Virus record (IMG/VR): IMGVR_UViG_2645728113_000006
Origin: an uncultured virus (IMG/VR IMGVR_UViG_2645728113_000006)
Taxonomy: Duplodnaviria > Heunggongvirae > Uroviricota > Caudoviricetes
DNA length: 20,000 nucleotides
Direction: 5' to 3' (one strand)
Positions 3,313 to 13,500 of the stretch are shown in pieces. The notes beneath the pieces are model-generated. The model saw only the letters and a list, made by a program, of their open reading frames with translations. It was not told the DNA's origin and ran no database searches. Position 1 is the first letter of the stretch. The number at the start of each line of letters is the position of its first letter. The position numbers and the translations under genes were made by a program.

Positions 3313-3385
3313 GTTGTATGCCTGAACAGTATCGACTCGTCACGACAATCTACTTATCCTAGATTATTTGATACGAGATCAAATC

Positions 3386-4192
3386 ATGTTGCCCGAGCCA
3401 AGGCTGGCGCTAAACGAACTACTCAAGGAGCGAACCCTGCTCTGGCATAAGATTGCTGAAAATCATTATGTTGACGAGTTTGAGGTTCGGCGACTTTTTA
3501 ATAAGCTTGATCGGCTGATAACAGATCCCGGTGCCGAGTTCAGTATTGCACCAGCCGCTTTGCATGAGCAGGCATATCTTTACGCTTACCAAATGAAAAC
3601 CTCTAACGCCCTGCGGTTGTTTGAAGATGCTCGCCGTGCGGGACTTGATGGGCTTGCCGTATCAATTTCTACGGCCCATGCTTTATATATTTGTGGCGAG
3701 GTCGAAATGTCCAGGGAAGAGATATTGCGTACTGACTATTCTGATGCGAATAACAGGGGGCTGTCAGGGCTGGCTGATACCTGCGTTCATACTGGCTTGC
3801 TGAAAATGGCCAGGGATCTTTACATTCGGTCTGGAAAACAGGGTGGCGAAGTAAGCACTCAAGTTTTGCGTGCGGCCGAAATAATGGACCAGATTGGCGC
3901 GACGGATGAACAAGTAATGCGCAGGATCGCGACGGCTGCAAAAATTATCAAGTCTATGTCTGCGCATCCGTTCATTGCATTTGACCTGTTCGCTATGCAG
4001 GGCGAGGGAATCCTCTACCGCTTCGTAGTGAATGGGAGTACTGAAAGGCTGGTCGAGATTGATATGGCAATTGATGAGGCATTAATCGCTGATTTCGATG
4101 AGGAAATTGATGACGTATTGTCGATTGGGATTGCGCCTTATGAGTTCGGTTCGAATATGTTAGCTGCGGATGGTTATTATGTCGGTGTGTAG
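3386..4192 (+). CDS. Hypothetical moron protein, helical/TPR-like N-terminus; possible partner of the downstream HEPN protein
   Basis: Long ORF (ATG 3386, alternative TTG 3368) with lower GC than the tail genes; overlaps the next gene by 14 nt. No family recognised with confidence. Confidence 0.65.
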   Translation: MLPEPRLALNELLKERTLLWHKIAENHYVDEFEVRRLFNKLDRLITDPGAEFSIAPAALHEQAYLYAYQMKTSNALRLFEDARRAGLDGLAVSISTAHALYICGEVEMSREEILRTDYSDANNRGLSGLADTCVHTGLLKMARDLYIRSGKQGGEVSTQVLRAAEIMDQIGATDEQVMRRIATAAKIIKSMSAHPFIAFDLFAMQGEGILYRFVVNGSTERLVEIDMAIDEALIADFDEEIDDVLSIGIAPYEFGSNMLAADGYYVGV

Positions 4193-4556
4193 TGATGATC
4201 TGTTGTTGTTAGCCGAGTCACTTATTGGAAGTAAGGATGAGGTTGGCAATCGTGCGAGCATAAGCAGAAGTTATTATGCACTGTACCATGAGGCTACAAT
4301 AGCCGCATCGGCGCTCTCTTTAAAAAGCAATCCAGATGTAAAAACAAGTCACGATAAATTAATTTCGCGCTTTACCGGTGCGACTAAAGGTCTTGCCTCA
4401 ATTGGGCGCGGCATTCTCAAGCAAAAGCGATTGCGTGCAATGGCTGACTATGAGATCGGCTCAGATCTCAATGCGTCCGAGGCGAGGTTCCATTTGGCTA
4501 CAAGCAAGCGGCTTGTAAGTGACTTGCGAAGGATCGCTGATCCTGCGAACTCTTAA
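4179..4556 (+). CDS. HEPN-domain protein (putative toxin/RNase)
   Basis: 125 aa from ATG 4179. RASISRSYYALYH and R..ADYE motifs are typical of small HEPN proteins. Confidence 0.75.
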   Translation: MSVCSDDLLLLAESLIGSKDEVGNRASISRSYYALYHEATIAASALSLKSNPDVKTSHDKLISRFTGATKGLASIGRGILKQKRLRAMADYEIGSDLNASEARFHLATSKRLVSDLRRIADPANS

Positions 4557-4815
4557 GATCTTTGCTGGATCAGGTCTTGAACAGAGTTTTCCTGTTATCC
4601 GCCACCCTGCTACAGTCCCGCCAAACCAAAGAGGGAACGACATGCGGATTTTTGCTGTGATGTGCGAGGACCATTGATGTGATGCTGTGTTAGAGCGCAA
4701 GAGACTTTGGCAGTTTTATATGGAAGAGCGAGAAATCGCGAGTAGCTCCTATTGATTGCTGGCGCTGATCATGGCCGAATGATAGCTTTCAACCGTATTA
4801 ATTTTTTTCCACGGA

Positions 4816-5691
4816 GTGGATGTGCCAGCCCTTATTCCCCAATTGGTCAATGCTGCACTCGATCCTCATACATCGGTTGCCAGCTTGCTAAGGCATGCGC
4901 TAGTAGCGGCAAATAGGCTTAGTCTCGTTGACCTGGCCGATTGGATGAGTTCGGAACTCAATGGCTACAAAACCGCTTCACTGCCGGAGTATAGAAAGCT
5001 CCGTGGCACTCTCATTTGTGAGCACGAATTTGGGGGGTGGATGCCTTTAGAGGTCACGCATGCGGCAACCCTTAATATGGTGTCTCAGCGACCGTTCTAT
5101 CAGTCCATCCCGGAATTAGAGCGATTAACTAGCAGCGGCGGGCCTTTCGTCGTTTTTTTTCCTCCAAAGAATGAAGTTTACTTACGCTCATTAATGAGGC
5201 CACCGACTAGGCCGGCAGTGGAAATACAGGCGAGCCAGATATTTGGCCTAATAGAGCTAGTTCGTAGCAGAATATTACAGTGGGCACTAGACCTTGAGTC
5301 CAAAGGGGTTATGGGTGAAGGTATGTCGTTTACATTGCAGGAGCGTCAGATCGTGGCTGCACAGCACTACCATTTTGGCGATGTTACTGGATCTCAAATT
5401 CAAATTGGCTCGAGTGGGTCGAATCAGTCCATCGCACCCGGTGACAGCACGGGAGCAATGAATGCGTTAATCAACCTGCTTCGTGATGTTCTAGCTCGGA
5501 ACGAGATTGATGGCGATGTGGCTGCCGAGTTGGTTGCCGAGCTCAAGACTCTGGAAGCTCAAGCCGAATCACCACGGCCTAAGGCATCAATTATCAGAGA
5601 AACCGCGCTGAGTATTCAGAGGGTCTTAGAGGGGGTTGCCGGTAACGTATTAGCGACCGCCGCTCCATTGATTTATTCGCTGGTGAGTTGA
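4816..5691 (+). CDS. AbiTii-domain protein (putative abortive-infection effector)
   Basis: N-terminus ALDPHTSVASLLRHALVAANRL...W...ELNGY...LPEYRKLRG resembles the AbiTii domain as I recall it. GTG start after GGA; terminator follows. Confidence 0.75.
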   Translation: MDVPALIPQLVNAALDPHTSVASLLRHALVAANRLSLVDLADWMSSELNGYKTASLPEYRKLRGTLICEHEFGGWMPLEVTHAATLNMVSQRPFYQSIPELERLTSSGGPFVVFFPPKNEVYLRSLMRPPTRPAVEIQASQIFGLIELVRSRILQWALDLESKGVMGEGMSFTLQERQIVAAQHYHFGDVTGSQIQIGSSGSNQSIAPGDSTGAMNALINLLRDVLARNEIDGDVAAELVAELKTLEAQAESPRPKASIIRETALSIQRVLEGVAGNVLATAAPLIYSLVS

Positions 5692-5695
5692 TGCC

Positions 5696-5720
5696 AGCCC
5701 AGTCCCGCGCTGGGCTTTTT
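5696..5720 (+). terminator. Rho-independent terminator
   Basis: AGCCCAG-tcccgcg-CTGGGCT-TTTT between convergent genes. Confidence 0.8.
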
Positions 5721-5723
5721 GCT

Positions 5724-6272
5724 TTAAACATTCCGAGGAGTTCGCCGATCCTTGAGTACGGAATCTAGGTCTCGTGCTAATTGGTCGGCGAGAATTCCGA
5801 GGATTGTCCATATGGCCATTGAGCGGGTGCGGATGACAATCGCATGCGTCTCCTCATCCTCTCCTTCGGGCTCATAAGGCGTGAAATTCTTCTGATACAC
5901 GGCGAACCCGATCGGCTCGCTGATTTTGAAGAATTTTGCTAGCAGAGGCTGCAAGCGCACTGGTTCGTTTCGATGTCCTACCGCGTTGCGAAGGTTATTT
6001 AGCGCCTTAATCGAATCCCATAGTTCAGGCTCCATAGCTGAACCCACGATTGCCCTGCAGAGCTCCGTAGCAGTGCCGAAAGTAAAAATATCGTTTCGGC
6101 TATAAGGGCGAGAGTATTGGGCTACCCCAGCGGCTATCAGATCATGCAATTGCTCCTCGACAATCATGTGGCCGCGTAGCACTGCCGACAGCAGTTCACT
6201 GTCCCGTTCGAAGGTGCGATGAAACTGCGCGGTCTTCTTCTCGATGTCCTTTGCGAAAAGTTCTCTTTTCAT
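5724..6272 (-). CDS. HEPN-like (MtlR/DUF4145-type fold) protein with an Rx4H motif
   Basis: 182 aa; VLRGHMIVEEQL...LNNLRNAVGH contains R-x4-H preceded by the usual helix pattern. Confidence 0.6.
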   Translation of the reverse strand: MKRELFAKDIEKKTAQFHRTFERDSELLSAVLRGHMIVEEQLHDLIAAGVAQYSRPYSRNDIFTFGTATELCRAIVGSAMEPELWDSIKALNNLRNAVGHRNEPVRLQPLLAKFFKISEPIGFAVYQKNFTPYEPEGEDEETHAIVIRTRSMAIWTILGILADQLARDLDSVLKDRRTPRNV

Positions 6273-6365: not shown

Positions 6366-6851
6366 TCATTGCGGCATCGGTGGCCAGCTTTTGGACTCTT
6401 CGACTACGTTGGCGATTACTTCTTCGATGGTTGTCTTTTCGCCGCGAGCCTCGGCATGAAAAAGATCAATTATTGCGTTGAGCATTATTTCCTGTGTGAC
6501 GCCATGCTTCGCTGCTTCGCCTTGTAGATTTTCGATGGTGCTTTTCGGTAACGCTAGGACTAGGTCTTTCTTGCCCTCAGCGACTAGCGCCATTTCTAAA
6601 ACCTCGGGCTGGTCATCAACATCCTGCAGTTTTTCCACTTCACAACCGAGTGCTTTAGAGAGCTTGACTAATGCGGTCATGCGAGGAACCGAGGTGCCCA
6701 TCTCATACCGTCCTATTTGAGGAACGCTTAAGCCACTCGCCTTCGCAAGATCGCGCTGTGTCATTCCCGCGTCTGCGCGGAGGCGGACGAGCCGGGAAGG
6801 GAAGCCTTTCGGGTGGTACATGCTGATTCCATACTGTGGTGTGGAAAACAT
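6366..6851 (-). CDS. XRE-family HTH transcriptional regulator with a possible C-terminal ribbon-helix-helix-like segment
   Basis: RLVRLRADAGMTQRDLAKASGLSVPQIGRYEMG is a classic XRE HTH. Divergent from the arc/antirepressor genes. True start could be the internal Met (MYHPKG). Confidence 0.85.
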   Translation of the reverse strand: MFSTPQYGISMYHPKGFPSRLVRLRADAGMTQRDLAKASGLSVPQIGRYEMGTSVPRMTALVKLSKALGCEVEKLQDVDDQPEVLEMALVAEGKKDLVLALPKSTIENLQGEAAKHGVTQEIMLNAIIDLFHAEARGEKTTIEEVIANVVEESKSWPPMPQ

Positions 6852-6950
6852 GATGTTCGCGAAACATTGTCAGCGCAAGAAGATGATGGCAAATGATGTT
6901 GACTAGACGTCGTAAATGATGCGTAATGATGTCTAGTGATTGTTAAGGAG
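6850..6950. promoter_or_regulatory. Divergent promoter/operator region with ATGATG repeats
   Basis: ATGATG at 6850, 6883, 6893, 6916 and 6926 (two pairs 10 bp apart). Inverted repeat ACTAGAC (6902) / GTCTAGT (6931). TTGACT at 6899 is a candidate -35. RBS AAGGAGG at 6945. Confidence 0.55.
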
Positions 6951-6955
6951 GTTTT

Positions 6956-7123
6956 ATGAGGTCGGAAAAATCGCGATACCCGCTCAGCTTGGAGGCATCT
7001 GTGAAAGTGCAGGCAGAAGGTGAAGCAAAGAAAAATCGACGCAGTTTGAATGCCGAACTCGGACTGTTAATCGAGGAGGGACTGAAATGGAGGGAGCAAA
7101 CGAGCAAGCAGGCAGTAGCCTAA
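6956..7123 (+). CDS. Arc-like ribbon-helix-helix repressor (55 aa, absent from the ORF track)
   Basis: Manual translation: MRSEKSRYPLSLEASVKVQAEGEAKKNRRSLNAELGLLIEEGLKWREQTSKQAVA*. Arc signature A..N.RSLNAE; strong RBS TAAGGAGG. Confidence 0.85.
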   Translation: MRSEKSRYPLSLEASVKVQAEGEAKKNRRSLNAELGLLIEEGLKWREQTSKQAVA

Positions 7124-7191
7124 AACGAAGAAACCCCGGCTTGCAGGCCAGGGCTTCGGGTAACGAGATCAACTACCAGGAAGAAATCGTC

Positions 7192-8055
7192 ATGAGCGAT
7201 ATTAGCACAACCGTTTCGAATGTCATCCCGTTCAATTTCGGCAAGCAGCAGGTGCGTACGCTGCTGATTGATGATCAGCCGTGGTTCGTGGCTAACGATG
7301 TTTCTGCTGCGCTTCAGTACAGCGAAGCGTCGGCGATGACTCGGCATTTGGACGACGATGAAAAGGGTCTGTCGATTGTGCAGACCCTTGGCGGCGATCA
7401 GGAAATGCTGGTCATCAACGAGTCAGGCCTTTACTCGGCAATCCTGCGCAGCCGTAAGGCTGAAGCCAAACGCTTTAAGAAGTGGGTCACCGCTGAAGTC
7501 CTCCCGGCGATTCGCAAGCAGGGCAGCTACCAAGATTCCAGCAATAAAATGAAGGCGCTGATGGATGATCTGGTCGACATGACCGAGACGAATGCACTGA
7601 AGGGCTTGGCGCGCCACAAGGTGGCACATCTTCCAGCCTCCATTCAGCGCAGTGCTTCCGCTCGTATTTATTCGGCAGTGCACACACGTTTCAACGTGCC
7701 GCGTCTTGAGCTTATCCCTGCAAGCCAGTTCGAGTCGGCGTGCAACTTCATCGCGGCCTACGCCGTTCTTGAGGGAGAGTTCATTCCGAAGGGGAACGGC
7801 AAGCCATTCGACATCCCGGAGAAGCTTGGCCAGTGTGAGCGCTATCTCGTCAGCGCAGATCCTCACGGCAATCGGCAGGTCACGCCGGTGCCAATGGGGG
7901 CGTTCGTCCTGACTCGGCAGCAGTTCATGCAGTCAATGCTTGTTGATCGAGATATGCCAGTTTCCACAGCGGAGATGTTCGAGTTTGTAGCGCTGGCGAC
8001 CGAAAACCTGCGCTACCGCTTTCTGTTCCAGGCTGCCCGGAGGGACGCAGCATGA
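7192..8055 (+). CDS. BRO-N domain phage antirepressor
   Basis: FNFGKQQVRTLLIDDQPWFVANDV...INESGLYSAILRSRKAEAKRFKKWVTAEVLPAIRKQG is BRO-N; followed by a P22 Ant C-terminal-like region (VHTRFNVPRLELIPASQF). ATG 7192 follows AGGAAG. Confidence 0.9.
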   Translation: MSDISTTVSNVIPFNFGKQQVRTLLIDDQPWFVANDVSAALQYSEASAMTRHLDDDEKGLSIVQTLGGDQEMLVINESGLYSAILRSRKAEAKRFKKWVTAEVLPAIRKQGSYQDSSNKMKALMDDLVDMTETNALKGLARHKVAHLPASIQRSASARIYSAVHTRFNVPRLELIPASQFESACNFIAAYAVLEGEFIPKGNGKPFDIPEKLGQCERYLVSADPHGNRQVTPVPMGAFVLTRQQFMQSMLVDRDMPVSTAEMFEFVALATENLRYRFLFQAARRDAA

Positions 8056-8627
8056 GCATGGAACTTGTCACACTAAAAATTACCGGCACGTCACCGCTGA
8101 TGATGCACAGCGACAAGCTGGCCAACCCTTTGAATCCAGCAACAAAGGCTCACAAGGAATTGACCGGTAAGCGCAAGAAGACGGACGACGATCATCTTGC
8201 CATTGCTCGCTCTGAGTTTATCGCTGGTGCCTACCACGATGAAAAGCTTGGCTTTTTTGTGCCAGGTGCGAATTTCGATGCGACGTTCTTGGCTGGCGCG
8301 AAGCTCCAAAAGCTGGGCACTCAATGGAAGCGCGGAGCGGTTGTGATGACTGACAAGGCGAAGCTTGAGTTCTCTGGCCCGACAACGCCTGACTCTCTTT
8401 GGGAGGATCAGCGGTTCGTTGACTGCCGCGGAGTAAAAGTTGGTCAAGCCAAGATCATGCGATACCGCCCGATCTTTCTTGAGTGGGCCGTGGAGCTGGA
8501 AGTTGCAATCAACGCTGACGTACTCAACATCGAGGAAGCAAAAAAAGCGATCACTGATTCTGGCCTGTTGATTGGGGTCTGTGAATACAGACCGCGCTTC
8601 GGTCGCTTCGAGGTGGAATATGTCTGA
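8052..8627 (+). CDS. Stand-alone Cas7/RAMP-like RNA-binding protein (candidate Vipr-type effector)
   Basis: 191 aa with RAMP hallmarks recognised by eye: N-terminal strand LKITGTSPLMMH, FFVPGANF (cf. IPGSS.KG), RYRPIFLEWAVELEV, and a C-terminal Gly-rich loop GLLIGVCEYRPRFGRFEV. ATGA-coupled to the antirepressor and upstream of a structured RNA array. Confidence 0.75.
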   Translation: MSMELVTLKITGTSPLMMHSDKLANPLNPATKAHKELTGKRKKTDDDHLAIARSEFIAGAYHDEKLGFFVPGANFDATFLAGAKLQKLGTQWKRGAVVMTDKAKLEFSGPTTPDSLWEDQRFVDCRGVKVGQAKIMRYRPIFLEWAVELEVAINADVLNIEEAKKAITDSGLLIGVCEYRPRFGRFEVEYV

Positions 8628-9078
8628 GTTGACAAAGCACCCGAGCTATAAGCAAGCCGTTGAAGACTTCCTCAAGGAGTTCAAATACGGTGATTTGGTC
8701 GGACATGAATGGCTGGAGGCTCGTTTCGGCATGCCGTCAATGACCGATTCGAAGTCGCTGACTGTTGAGAAGTTTCGTGAGCGTCAGTTCGAGTGGCTGG
8801 CGAACGTCGAGGCATTCAAGTCGGACTTGCTCAAACATCATCAAGTCTGCCTTCAGTCAGTGCGCGGGCGTGGTTATCGATGGGTGCCGCCTCATGAGCA
8901 GACAGAAGTTGCGGTAACTGAGTTGGGCCGGAATGTCAGGAAGGCGTTTCGCGGGAGTGGAGAAAAGCTGAGAAATTTGAGGATTACGGAGCTTACCGAT
9001 GATCAGCGACGGGCAAACCTTGACGCTGTTGCAAAGTTTTCCGCGCTCCAGGGCATGACTCGAAAGGCTCTTGGTTAA
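8620..9078 (+). CDS. Hypothetical protein, accessory gene between the RAMP-like gene and the RNA array
   Basis: 152 aa from ATG 8620 (MSELTKHPSY), 8-nt overlap with the RAMP gene. LQSVRGRGYRWV resembles a winged-helix wing. Stop codon lies inside the first array repeat. Confidence 0.75.
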   Translation: MSELTKHPSYKQAVEDFLKEFKYGDLVGHEWLEARFGMPSMTDSKSLTVEKFRERQFEWLANVEAFKSDLLKHHQVCLQSVRGRGYRWVPPHEQTEVAVTELGRNVRKAFRGSGEKLRNLRITELTDDQRRANLDAVAKFSALQGMTRKALG

Positions 9079-9130
9079 TAGCAGCGTAATATCCTTTCTA
9101 TGAGAGGGCATTGCGGTGCGAATGCATCAT

Positions 9131-9190
9131 GTGGCGTGGCGAGACAAGGTTGGGCGAGGTCTGGTTAGGTCGGGCATGTCTAGGTGAGGG
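9131..9190 (+). ncRNA. Putative guide tract 1 (12 NN-GGY pentamers)
   Basis: GT-GGC GT-GGC GA-GAC AA-GGT TG-GGC GA-GGT CT-GGT TA-GGT CG-GGC AT-GTC TA-GGT GA-GGG; exact 5-nt register. Confidence 0.8.
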
Positions 9191-9245
9191 CTGACAACAG
9201 CGTAATGCCGATTGGAATCAGTCGGCATTGCGGTGGCAGAAGCCG

Positions 9246-9310
9246 CTGGCAGGTTCTGGTCCGGCAAGTCGCGGCTAGGCCCGGCGGGGTGTGATTTGAT
9301 TTGGTATGGG
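9246..9310 (+). ncRNA. Putative guide tract 2 (13 NN-GGY pentamers)
   Basis: CT-GGC AG-GTT CT-GGT CC-GGC AA-GTC GC-GGC TA-GGC CC-GGC GG-GGT GT-GAT TT-GAT TT-GGT AT-GGG; exact 5-nt register. Confidence 0.8.
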
Positions 9311-9375
9311 CTGATAACAGCGTAATGTCTCTTCTTGGAGGAGGCATTGCAGTTTTAGAAGGTTTCGATTGACAT

Positions 9376-9898: not shown

Positions 9899-10498
9899 AT
9901 GTCAGCACTCGCAATTAATTATCAGCCGATGACTACCATCTTGCTTTATGGGCAGCTTAGGCAATTTGGAAGATCTTTCAGGTTGTCAGTTAAGTCCCCA
10001 GCCGAGGCTATCAAGGCGCTATGCGTACAGATCCCTGGCTTCGAGCGGTTCCTGTCGAACGCCAAGTCTCGCGGCATTGAGTTTGCCGTGTTTCGAGGGT
10101 CAAAAAATCTTGCAGAAAAAGAATTAGGATTTGGCGGTTCCGGAGAAATCCGTATAGCGCCTGTAATTACGGGCCGAAAGCGCGCAGGCCTGATGCAGAC
10201 CATTTTGGGCGCCATATTGATTGTGGTAGGTTTTTTTGCTTTCGGGTCGACAACAACTACAGGCGCAGCGCTCATAGCGGGCGGTATCGGTAGTGCTGCT
10301 GGGGGCGTAATCCAAATGCTTAGTCCGCAGGCGGCAGGCCTCAAGATGAGCGCTGCGCCCGAAAACCAGCCTGGATATGCATTTGGCTCGGCGCAGAACA
10401 CAACTGCATCCGGCAACCCGGTCCCGCTCTGCTACGGCAAGCGCAGGGTCGGCGGGGCGATTATTAGCGCCGCGATATACGCCGAAGACCAGATGTAG
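9899..10498 (+). CDS. Tail assembly protein, lambda gpI-like
   Basis: ATG 9899 after GGAGA. LYGQLRQFG...SPAEAIKALC ubiquitin-like N-terminus, a hydrophobic Gly-rich segment, and YAFG...GNPVPLCYG. Confidence 0.92.
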   Translation: MSALAINYQPMTTILLYGQLRQFGRSFRLSVKSPAEAIKALCVQIPGFERFLSNAKSRGIEFAVFRGSKNLAEKELGFGGSGEIRIAPVITGRKRAGLMQTILGAILIVVGFFAFGSTTTTGAALIAGGIGSAAGGVIQMLSPQAAGLKMSAAPENQPGYAFGSAQNTTASGNPVPLCYGKRRVGGAIISAAIYAEDQM

Positions 10499-10557: not shown

Positions 10558-13500
10558 ATGGGCGCAGCACAAAAGATCGATATACACGGCGCCAAAGGCG
10601 GCGAAGGTAAACCAAAAACGCCGACTGAGGCCCCGGACAGTCTGCGCTCTGTTGCTATCGCAAAAATGCTCATTGCCGTGGGCGAGGGTGAGTTCGAGGG
10701 CACGCCAACTGCCAAAGACATCTATCTCGACAACACGCCCCTGCAAGACCCTCAAGGCAACATAAATTTCCCGAACGTGAAGTGGGAGTGGCGCACCGGT
10801 GCCGTGGACCAGAGCTATATCCAGGGCATCCCTTCGGTCGAGAACGAGACCACGATCAGTACCGAGCTGCGCAGCGGGACACCGTGGGTACGGGCCATCA
10901 GCAATACCCAGCTTTCCGCTGTTCGCGTCCGTTTTGCGTGGCCTGTGCTTCAGTCCGTGGACTCTGGTGGCAACGTCAATGGCTACCGGATTGAATACAA
11001 GGTTGAGCTGGCCACCGATGGCGGCGCCTATCAGCAGGTGCTGAGCGAGGCTGTCGACGGCAAGACCACCAGCCTGTACGAGCGCACGCGCCGTATCAAT
11101 TTGCCGAAGGCCACTTCTGGTTGGCTGATGCGGATCACTCGCCTGACCGCGAATCAGAACAACAACAAAATCTCCGACACGATGCAAATTGCCGGCTTCA
11201 CCGAGGTGATCGACGCGAAGATCCGCTACCCGAATACTGCGCTGCTTTACATCGAGTTCTCGGCCGAGCAGTTCCGCAGCATTCCTGCCGTTACCGTCGA
11301 GACCAAACTGAAGAAGATGCAGGTGCCGAGCAACTACGACCCAGTGTCGCGCACCTACTCGGGCGTCTGGGATGGCACGTTTAAGCAGGCTTGGACCGAC
11401 AACGCGGTCTGGATGACCTACGACATCAGTACCGCCGACCGCTTCGGCCTGGGTCGCCGCATCAAGCCGTGGATGGTTGATATTTGGGAGTTGTATCGTA
11501 TTTCCCAATACTGCGACCAGTTGGTGCCGGACGGGAAGGGGGGCCTGGAACCGCGCTTCATCTGCAACTTGAACCTGCAGAGCAAAGCCGATGCCTGGTC
11601 ACTGCTGCGTGACATATCGGCGATCTACCGAGGCATGACCTACTGGGCCCAGGGCCAGGTCTTCACCCTGTCGGATATGCCGCGTGCCACTGACTTCGAC
11701 TTCGCCTATACCAGGGCCAACGTCCTTGACGGTAAGTTCACCTACTCCAGCGCGTCGGAGCGTACCCGGTACACCCGGGCGCTGATCAGCTACGACAACC
11801 CGCTGAACAACTACGACACCGATGTCACTGCTGTGACCGATGCAAAGCTCCAGCGGCGCTATGGTGACAATCCGCTGGAGATCAGCGCAATTGGTTGTAC
11901 CCGCGAGTCCGAGGCCCAGCGCCGCGGCAAGTGGGCGCTGCTGACCAACTCCAAGGATCGGGCGGTTACCTTCAAGGTCGGCCTCGACGGTCGCATCCCG
12001 CTTCCTGGTTACGTGATCCCCATTGCTGACGAACTGCTTGCAGGTCGGCCGGTGGGTGGCCGTATCTCGGCGGTGAACGGAAAGGTCATCACCCTGGACC
12101 GTGACACCCAGGCCAAGCCCGGCGACCGGTTGATCCTCAACTTGCCAGACGGCAAGTGCGAGGGGCGCACGGTGCAACTGGTCAGTGGCCGACAGGTCAC
12201 CGTAACCCTGGCCTACTCCGTACCACCGGAGCGTGAACTAGTGTGGGCGCTGGACGCCGACGATCTGGCGATCCCGCTTTACCGGGTGGTCAGCGTGGCG
12301 CGGCCAGAGCCCGGCGTATTTGAAATCTCAGCCGTGCAGTACGACCCCAGCAAGTTCGATCACATCGACACCGGCGCCCGGTTGGAAGAGCGGCCTATCA
12401 GCGTTGTACCGATCACCGTAGTTCCTGCCCCGACGAGCGTCGACATCACGTCGAACTACTCCGTGGACCAGGGCCTGGCAATCAGCACCATGAATATCTC
12501 GTGGCCTGCTGTGGCTGGCGCAGTGGCTTATGACGTGGAGTGGCGCAAGGACAGCGGAAACTGGATCAAGCTGCAGCGCACCGGCTCTACCAGCGTTGAC
12601 GTCACCGGCATTTACTCGGGCGCATATCTCGCCCGTGTTCGGTCGGTGAGCGCGTTCGAGATTTCGTCCATTTGGAAGAGCTCCAATCTGACCAACCTGG
12701 AAGGGAAGGTCGGCCTCCCGCCGGCCGTGGCGTTCCTGTCCACCACTAGCGAGCTGTTCGGCATTGGCATTCGCTGGGGTTTCCCGGCTGACGCCGAGGA
12801 TACCCAGCGCACCGAGCTCTGGTATGGACAGGCTAATGATCTGTCGGTGGCGACCAAACTCGCAGACTTGGCGCACCCCCAAGCGAATTACAGCATGCAG
12901 GCCCTAAAGGCCGGCGCGCAGTTCTTCTTCTGGGCTCGCCTGGTCGACCGTACCGGTAACGTTGGCCCGTTCTATCCCGTCGGTAACGGCGTGATGGGGA
13001 TGGCAAGTGCCGATGCGGCGCCGGTGCTGGATTTGATCGCCGGGCAGATTGGGCGTACGGAGCTGGGCAAGGACATCACGGACGAGATCGACAAGATCCC
13101 AGGGCTGCAGGCGCAGATCGACGCGCTCGATGGGTTGTCCGCCTACGACCCGGAGTCGACCTACCTTGAGTTTGACCTAGTGGTGGTTGGTAAGCGGATC
13201 TACCAGGCCACCGGCCCGGTACCCGTCGATACGCCACCACCGAATGCCAACTACTGGCAGGACGTGGGTCAGGCGGTGGTCACTGCCAATGGCCTTGCGC
13301 GTCAAGTTGAGATCAATACCACCAGCATCACCGAACTGGACGGGGTGGTCACGGCTCAGGCGTCAAGTCTTCAGGCGTTGCAATCGGCTTATCGGGACGA
13401 CACGGGGGAGGGGGATCTGGTTGATGCACTCCAGGGCTACAACGCCTCGGCGAGTTTCGCGCAGGAAGTGAAGACGCAGGCCACGAAGAACGCAGCCATG

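What the first reader, a model, noticed from the sequence alone, without database searches (positions are those of the whole stretch)
9246..9310. Guide 2 decodes to the opposite strand of tail gene I (N-T-P-G-Y-A-F-G-S)
Dinucleotides: CT AG CT CC AA GC TA CC GG GT TT TT AT. Reverse complement: AT AA AA AC CC GG TA GC TT GG AG CT AG, whose core reads N/K-T-P-G-Y-A-F/L-G-S/R. Gene I at 10364-10390 reads AAC CAG CCT GGA TAT GCA TTT GGC TCG (NQPGYAFGS). That gives six consecutive perfect dinucleotides plus AA (14/18 in the core), again skipping wobble positions. The flanking units match poorly, so this hit is statistically weaker than guide 1. One guide is sense and the other antisense to its gene, which points to dsDNA rather than mRNA recognition. 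In both guides the two 3'-most units mismatch, suggesting a ~9-unit functional core.
Basis: partly seen in the sequence, partly recalled or inferred. Interest (0 to 1): 0.9.

Follow-up and report, generated by a model that had tools for sequence, protein, structure and literature searches.

The report
Phage guide RNA against rival tails
A prophage carries a recently described RNA-guided silencing system (VIPR), and this guide spells out a conserved stretch of a tail-assembly gene of related rival phages while the phage's own copy of that gene differs enough to be spared, so it is a new example of a known system.

Summary
The decode is right, but the window's own gene I is not the target. 9246-9307 is the second guide (vrRNA) of a type II-like VIPR cassette: Vipr at 8052-8627 (SUSP1 Vipr structure, E=1e-46), a Vap1 homologue, and two GGY/NN guides with hairpin tails. 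The 14/18 self match is near chance (243 of 2000 shuffles). All five distinct carriers found mismatch their own site (12-14/18). Across the clade the last unit before the tail is largely unread and the next only partly, which supports the ~9-unit core. Mismatched gene I alleles also occur in VIPR-free phages, so guide-driven escape is not shown. The dsDNA, one-base-skip code is already published (bioRxiv 2026); this scan noted a similar tail-gene guide on other DNA. Expression and silencing were not tested.

The parts
9246..9307 (+). vrRNA guide 2: 13 NN units spaced by GGY-like triplets; units 3-11 (9256-9297) form the core that reads gene I of related phages on the coding strand
9308..9352 (+). 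Conserved 3' tail of guide 2 (constant leader units plus a hairpin at about 9322-9350)
   Evidence: (3 copies; 5 of 21 predicted pairs with changes on both sides)
9133..9187 (+). vrRNA guide 1: 11 units; its 9-unit core reads VDKWELYRI of tail-tip gene J of relatives (sense)
9188..9245 (+). Tail of guide 1 and short spacer before guide 2
9073..9120 (+). First tail copy, overlapping the vap stop codon, with no guide in front of it
8052..8627 (+). vipr (RAMP-like guide-binding protein, 191 aa)
   Evidence: PDB 36pp SUSP1 Vipr, E=1.3e-46; 42.5% identity to phiSUSP1
8620..9078 (+). vap1 homologue (152 aa)
   Evidence: 24% over 113 aa, E=6.5e-12, to the gene directly after SUSP1 vipr
10364..10390 (+). 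Own gene I copy of the target site, NQPGYAFGS: Gln for Thr and TCN for AGY serine remove 4 of 18 read bases
9899..10498 (+). Tail assembly gene I
11476..11502 (+). Own gene J copy of the guide 1 site, VDIWELYRI (16/18)
7192..8055 (+). Bro-N/ORF6C antirepressor-like gene whose stop overlaps the vipr start
6366..7123 (.). Divergent XRE-HTH gene (6366-6851, -) and Arc-like gene (6956-7123, +) heading the cassette

Best explanation
Guide 2 is a natural vrRNA of a type II-like VIPR cassette inserted between tail genes K and I of a lambdoid Pseudomonas prophage. Vipr subunits bind the GGY triplets and present the NN pairs, which read dsDNA two bases at a time and skip the third (shown for SUSP1; inferred here from homology). 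About nine units, plus possibly a tenth through a U-G wobble, pair with the coding strand of gene I of related temperate phages at a highly conserved motif, with the skipped base on the wobble position (target shown by sequence). The bound filament would block transcription of the rival's tail-tip genes, probably with polarity on J, fibre and lysis genes downstream (inferred), while guide 1 hits J on the other strand. The carrier's own gene I differs at two whole units, one of them near the tail where pairing is reported to start, so it is spared (mismatch shown; sparing inferred).
For: Vipr and Vap1 homology, with SUSP1 residues H17, K33, R39, K82, R138, R179 kept and D177/W178 as E/Y. Perfect core in at least 120 viral loci, 122 of 123 matches at one site of gene I in wobble frame, shuffled pattern 2 loci. 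38 of 400 genus genomes with 49 sites, reversed control 0 of 401. 39 of 47 gene I copies at >=65% identity are 18/18. phiAH14a and PseuP_222 are 18/18. At both units where self mismatches, the guide gives the commonest state in relatives (AC in 61 of 75, AG in 56 of 75). Guide 2's NN units are unchanged in all five distinct carriers while scaffold triplet bases vary. All five carriers, on two separate gene I lineages, score 12-14/18 at their own site. No perfect site in G000 or G076.
Against: No expression, binding or silencing data for this locus: no raw-read RNA run was offered and the one RNA-labelled run laid is probably DNA. Core boundaries were chosen after seeing the self match. Over all 13 units the best natural targets score 20-21 of 26, at or just under the paper's 80% filter; unit 2 (AG) mismatches in all 103 distinct targets although that position matches 72% in other clade guides. 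Mismatch tolerance has not been measured: 'mismatch' and 'seed' do not occur in the structure paper, so 14/18 might still bind weakly.
Confidence: 0.85

Rival explanations
1. Same target, but the self mismatches are escape changes selected by this very guide (Thr to Gln, and an AGY to TCN serine switch, one of the few silent changes that defeat a wobble-skipping guide).
For: Gln plus TCN occurs in 1 of 75 non-carrier gene I copies but in both carrier lineages; the sister of the L126 lineage (L240) is 18/18. For guide 1 the link is tighter: 5 of 6 viral contigs with the Ile variant of J carry guide 1 and 37 of 37 non-carrier J sites have Lys.
Against: The same gene I alleles occur without guide 2: L127 and L165 (VIPR, other guides), L228 (vipr, vap and array missing), L233, L263, and L338, whose complete K-to-I interval lacks VIPR yet whose gene I is identical in protein to a carrier's. 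The TCN fraction at this serine (7 of 63) lies within the range of the other conserved serines (0 of 73 to 13 of 69). A guide can persist only where self already differs, which gives the same pattern.
Confidence: 0.35
2. Guide 2 is autoregulatory: partial pairing damps the phage's own tail genes, for example in the lysogen.
For: The near-match lies about 1 kb downstream in the same operon and keeps six contiguous perfect units.
Against: The self score is near chance and falls to 12/18 in the second lineage with the same guide. The guide fits rivals better than self at every differing unit. None of 107 clade guides has fewer than 2 core mismatches to its own locus within 10 kb.
Confidence: 0.07
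3. The match to gene I is chance or a fossil, and the real target lies elsewhere or is gone.
For: Four of 13 units mismatch in essentially all targets; the full 11-unit pattern has 0 viral matches.
Against: At least 120 loci against 2 for the control, convergence on one site in frame, conserved NN units among carriers, and the same loss of match at the 3' units in other guides.
Confidence: 0.05

Closest known systems
Type II VIPR of the Pseudomonas fulva prophage clade (bioRxiv 10.64898/2026.04.26.720920; parts 1-6 of the text read, supplement PDF searched for four terms only, figures and Data S1-S4 not seen)
   Same: Pseudomonas prophage, vipr-vap1-array, GGY/NN guides with a structured 3' tail, 1-nt skip on wobble bases, targets on either strand of other prophages, no self hit at >=80%.
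   Different: The text says P. fulva-clade guides mainly hit lysis-lysogeny regulators and other VIPRs; it does not mention tail genes ('tail assembly', 'tail tip', 'gpJ' 0 hits in the supplement PDF). Data S3 may list such targets. Whether this Vipr is within their >90% clade could not be tested.
SUSP1 VIPR (PDB 36pp; bioRxiv 10.64898/2026.04.26.720927, parts 1-2 of 6 and passages read; 10.64898/2026.10.15.759431, parts 1-3 of 8 and passages read)
   Same: 42.5% Vipr identity, Vap1 homologue, wobble-aligned target in an essential conserved gene; lower self than non-self scores reported for vrRNA-targeting guides.
   Different: SUSP1 is lytic and silences a satellite's recombinase; its tail is a pseudoknot, here a long hairpin is predicted. 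Here the target is an essential homologue of the carrier's own neighbouring gene.
Class 1 CRISPR effectors and CRISPRi-type silencing
   Same: RAMP filament on a guide RNA; repression by binding.
   Different: No cas genes or CRISPR repeats were seen in the window; pairing is gapped.

Membership tests
VIPR | Vipr RAMP-like protein | tested here: met
   E=1.3e-46 to SUSP1 Vipr; key residues kept or conservatively changed
VIPR | vrRNA of 9-16 GGY/NN repeats | tested here: met
   11 and 13 units, some triplets degenerate
VIPR | Conserved structured 3' tail | tested here: met
   three copies with a covarying hairpin; the same tail start recurs before 112 distinct clade guides
VIPR | 1-nt-skip target in another mobile element, skip on the wobble base | tested here: met
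VIPR | No self target at >=80% NN match | tested here: met
   guide 2: 14/18 core, 15/26 overall; no perfect site in the own genome. Guide 1 is 16/18 and 18/22 on its own J, which would pass that filter
Type II VIPR | vap1 DNA-binding accessory gene after vipr, array downstream | tested here: met
   type assigned by likeness, not by placing it in the paper's tree
P. fulva VIPR clade | >90% identity to P. fulva Vipr | not tested
   that sequence was not obtained; the acidic G-loop residue is Glu here, Asp in the paper
VIPR | vrRNA expressed, bound by Vipr, represses its target | not testable with these tools
   only assembled contigs were available

The most novel reading that the evidence does not exclude
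Tail-operon VIPR cassettes act as allele-specific kin discrimination among near-sibling temperate phages: each silences the common allele of essential tail-tip genes (H, L, I, J) and carries a rarer allele itself, and rivals answer with guides against that rarer allele. L127 (Vipr 98% identical) has a guide that reads the 3' end of this window's gene I (21/24; its own gene 17/24), while its J is a perfect guide 1 target. A guide in L204 reads the TCN-serine allele of the same motif that guide 2 reads as AGY (17/18 on this window). Such an arms race would keep amino-acid and six-fold-codon polymorphisms in conserved structural genes, and shows that silent Ser/Leu/Arg box switches are a route round the wobble-proof code.
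Probability: 0.35. Interest if true: 0.62.

Novelty: new member of a known kind. Interest (0 to 1): 0.4.

Why it matters
The code, dsDNA recognition and anti-phage role are published, so the core of the finding is a rediscovery. It adds a natural guide-target pair testable with two isolated phages (PseuP_222, phiAH14a), a target class (tail-tip genes of the carrier's own kin) not named in the texts read, and a positional profile suggesting the unit next to the tail is scaffold and the next only partly read, which matters for target prediction since the papers apply no positional weighting.

Tried and rejected
Full 13-unit scan of the window and own genome: gene I does not stand out. The 11-unit pattern with both 3' units: 0 viral loci. 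Co-resident target in the host: none; one 3-mismatch site, matched by one in the reversed control; only one gene I homologue found in G000. Skip lengths 0, 2 and 3 against fetched loci: not informative, because many loci were fetched with the 1-skip pattern. Idea that the serine switch is exceptional: not supported. Idea that the mismatched gene I alleles are exclusive to carriers: rejected; 22 of 24 loci with the NQPSYAFG variant lack both guides, most of them distant gene I types. Idea of a recombined patch round the site: inconclusive. Promoter and terminator scans: no excess over shuffles. Sequencing runs: contigs only, no evidence on expression. Literature: two searches found three VIPR preprints and one that mentions VIPR arrays (10.64898/2026.10.21.760802, passages only); none of the text read names tail genes as targets.

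Full report
Setting. The window is the tail and lysis region of a lambdoid prophage (tape measure, M, L, K, then I, J, fibre, endolysin, Rz-like) on G000:C52. Between K and I lies a block of extra genes that ends in XRE / Arc-like / Bro-N / 8052-8627 / 8620-9078 / array / lipoprotein. The 191-aa protein matches the solved SUSP1 Vipr (E=1.3e-46; 42.5% identity). The next gene matches the gene after SUSP1 vipr (24% over 113 aa, E=6.5e-12). The array holds three tail copies with a covarying hairpin and two GGY/NN runs. This is the VIPR system of bioRxiv 10.64898/2026.04.26.720920, which reports the 1-nt skip, wobble alignment, targets on both strands and repression in vivo. The structure preprint shows a dsDNA triplex assembling from the tail end; ssRNA targets gave mostly incomplete filaments.

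Observation. The dinucleotides, coordinates and 14/18 count are correct. Taken alone the self match is close to chance: 243 of 2000 shuffled cores do as well in the window; only the six-unit perfect run is uncommon (27 of 2000). In the own genome 43 sites tie at 14 and one reaches 15.

The real target. Of 123 matches, 122 are at the same site of gene I homologues, in the frame where the skipped base is the third codon base; one (L038) is not gene I. One unit-shuffled pattern gave 2 loci. In 400 other genomes of the genus, 38 hold 49 perfect sites; the reversed pattern found 0 in 401; G000 and the other carrier G076 have none. I fetched 66 high-ranking non-carrier loci out of 245 gene I matches; they hold 75 copies, of which 47 are perfect, including 39 of the 47 at >=65% identity. 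Phages phiAH14a and PseuP_222 are 18/18 for guide 2 and 17/18 and 18/18 for guide 1. The core was delimited after seeing the self match, but the two units at which self fails predict the majority state of relatives, which that choice does not explain.

Which units read. In 103 distinct targets the penultimate unit faces GA in 102 (one match plus a possible U-G wobble), the last faces CC in 101, and the two 5' units fail in nearly all; the 11-unit pattern has 0 matches. Among 112 distinct guides from loci with Vipr >=70% identical, the last unit is AT in 66 (2.2 bits against 3.5-3.9 elsewhere). 25 of 107 guides had a 16/16 hit for units -10 to -3 in the fetched loci, against 0 of 214 shuffles; over the 39 guides with any 16/16 window the match was 37% at -1, 69% at -2, 90% at -3 and 92-100% at -4 to -12. 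Selecting only on -10 to -3 and collapsing 26 guides to 19 clusters gave 30% at -1, 65% at -2, 82% at -11 (13 clusters) and 72% at -12 (8 clusters).

Self. Guide 2 was found in 4 viral contigs, 2 metagenome contigs and one genome locus. L123 is the window, L125 equals L203 (L237 from G076 has the same gene I protein and is counted with them), and L270, L274, L340 and L349 hold one contig, which leaves five distinct carriers: window, L125, L126, L270, L350. Their NN units are identical while scaffold bases vary. They sit on two gene I lineages in a tree built with the site removed (57 rows) and score 14/18 or 12/18. None of 107 clade guides has fewer than two core mismatches in its own locus. 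Against a guide-driven origin: Gln plus TCN is also in L127, L165, L228, L233 and L263 without guide 2, and L338 has a carrier-type gene I with no VIPR between K and I; the TCN share at this serine is ordinary. For guide 1 the Ile allele of J occurs in 6 viral contigs, 5 with the guide and one a fragment starting inside J, while 37 of 37 non-carrier sites have Lys. Sparing of self is therefore consistent; whether by mutation or by filtering is open.

Mechanism. Shown by sequence: cassette, guide, target, frame, strand, self mismatch. Inferred from the papers: dsDNA binding and transcriptional block. Inferred by me: polarity on J, fibre and lysis genes downstream, and expression at infection or induction. 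The latter rests on the XRE/Arc/antirepressor head of the cassette resembling the P22 immI region (recalled, no call) and on the fact that sparing own late genes matters only if the complex is present during own lytic growth. No resident target was found in the host genome, so the rivals would be incoming phages or prophages of newly infected hosts. Vipr was found in 5 of 401 genus genomes, far fewer than hold targets.

Wider pattern. Of 41 clade guides with a target, 16 hit tail genes H, L, I or J and 2 hit vipr; the searched loci were enriched for tail genes by my fetching, so the share is inflated. L127's guide reads this window's gene I end (21/24; own 17/24) and its J is 18/18 for guide 1. 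L204 has three guides on gene I, one reading the TCN allele (17/18 here). L204 appears to be the same DNA as the VIPR locus of G099, which the tool marks unpublished; those L204 claims rest on it and may not be published without permission.

Verdict. A real, correctly decoded guide of a known system: new member of a known kind, interest 0.4. Tail genes as targets were not named in the texts I read (searches; finds), but Data S3 and the bioRxiv supplements were not visible and may list them.

Noticed in passing
window 11476-11502; L127, L165, L133, L162: Guide 1-like anti-J guides recur in several VIPR lineages; carriers' own J sites score 13-16/18, whereas L127, which lacks the guide, has a perfect site.
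   Followed up: partly
window 10462-10497 and L127 array: L127's single guide matches the end of this window's gene I (21/24) but not its own (17/24): possible reciprocal targeting between near-sibling prophages.
   Followed up: partly
L204 array (appears to be G099, unpublished): Three guides on gene I, one reading the TCN-serine allele of the motif that guide 2 reads as AGY.
   Followed up: partly
L138, L144: Guides that read vipr genes of other phages (KAHKELT region).
   Followed up: no
L228: Close relative of L127 in which vipr, vap and the array are replaced by about 570 bp of other DNA, keeping Bro-N, the lipoprotein gene and the mismatched gene I allele.
   Followed up: partly
window 6366-8055: XRE, Arc-like and Bro-N genes head the cassette; a Bro-N homologue precedes vipr in most close relatives.
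   Followed up: no
window 3368-6272: Further low-GC cargo between K and I: an unassigned 274-aa gene, a 128-aa gene (phrog_5176), an AbiTii-domain gene (4816-5691) and a 182-aa gene on the minus strand.
   Followed up: no
window 9899-10498: Gene I has lower GC at third codon positions (0.57) than L, K and J (0.73-0.79), like the cassette genes.
   Followed up: partly
L026, L037, L086, L230 and others: Several prophages carry two tandem gene I copies about 580 bp apart, sometimes with different alleles at the target site.
   Followed up: no
Pseudomonas phages Medea1 and vB_Pae_LESphi2: Both named phages carry unannotated vipr and vap homologues (82% and 46% Vipr identity).
   Followed up: no
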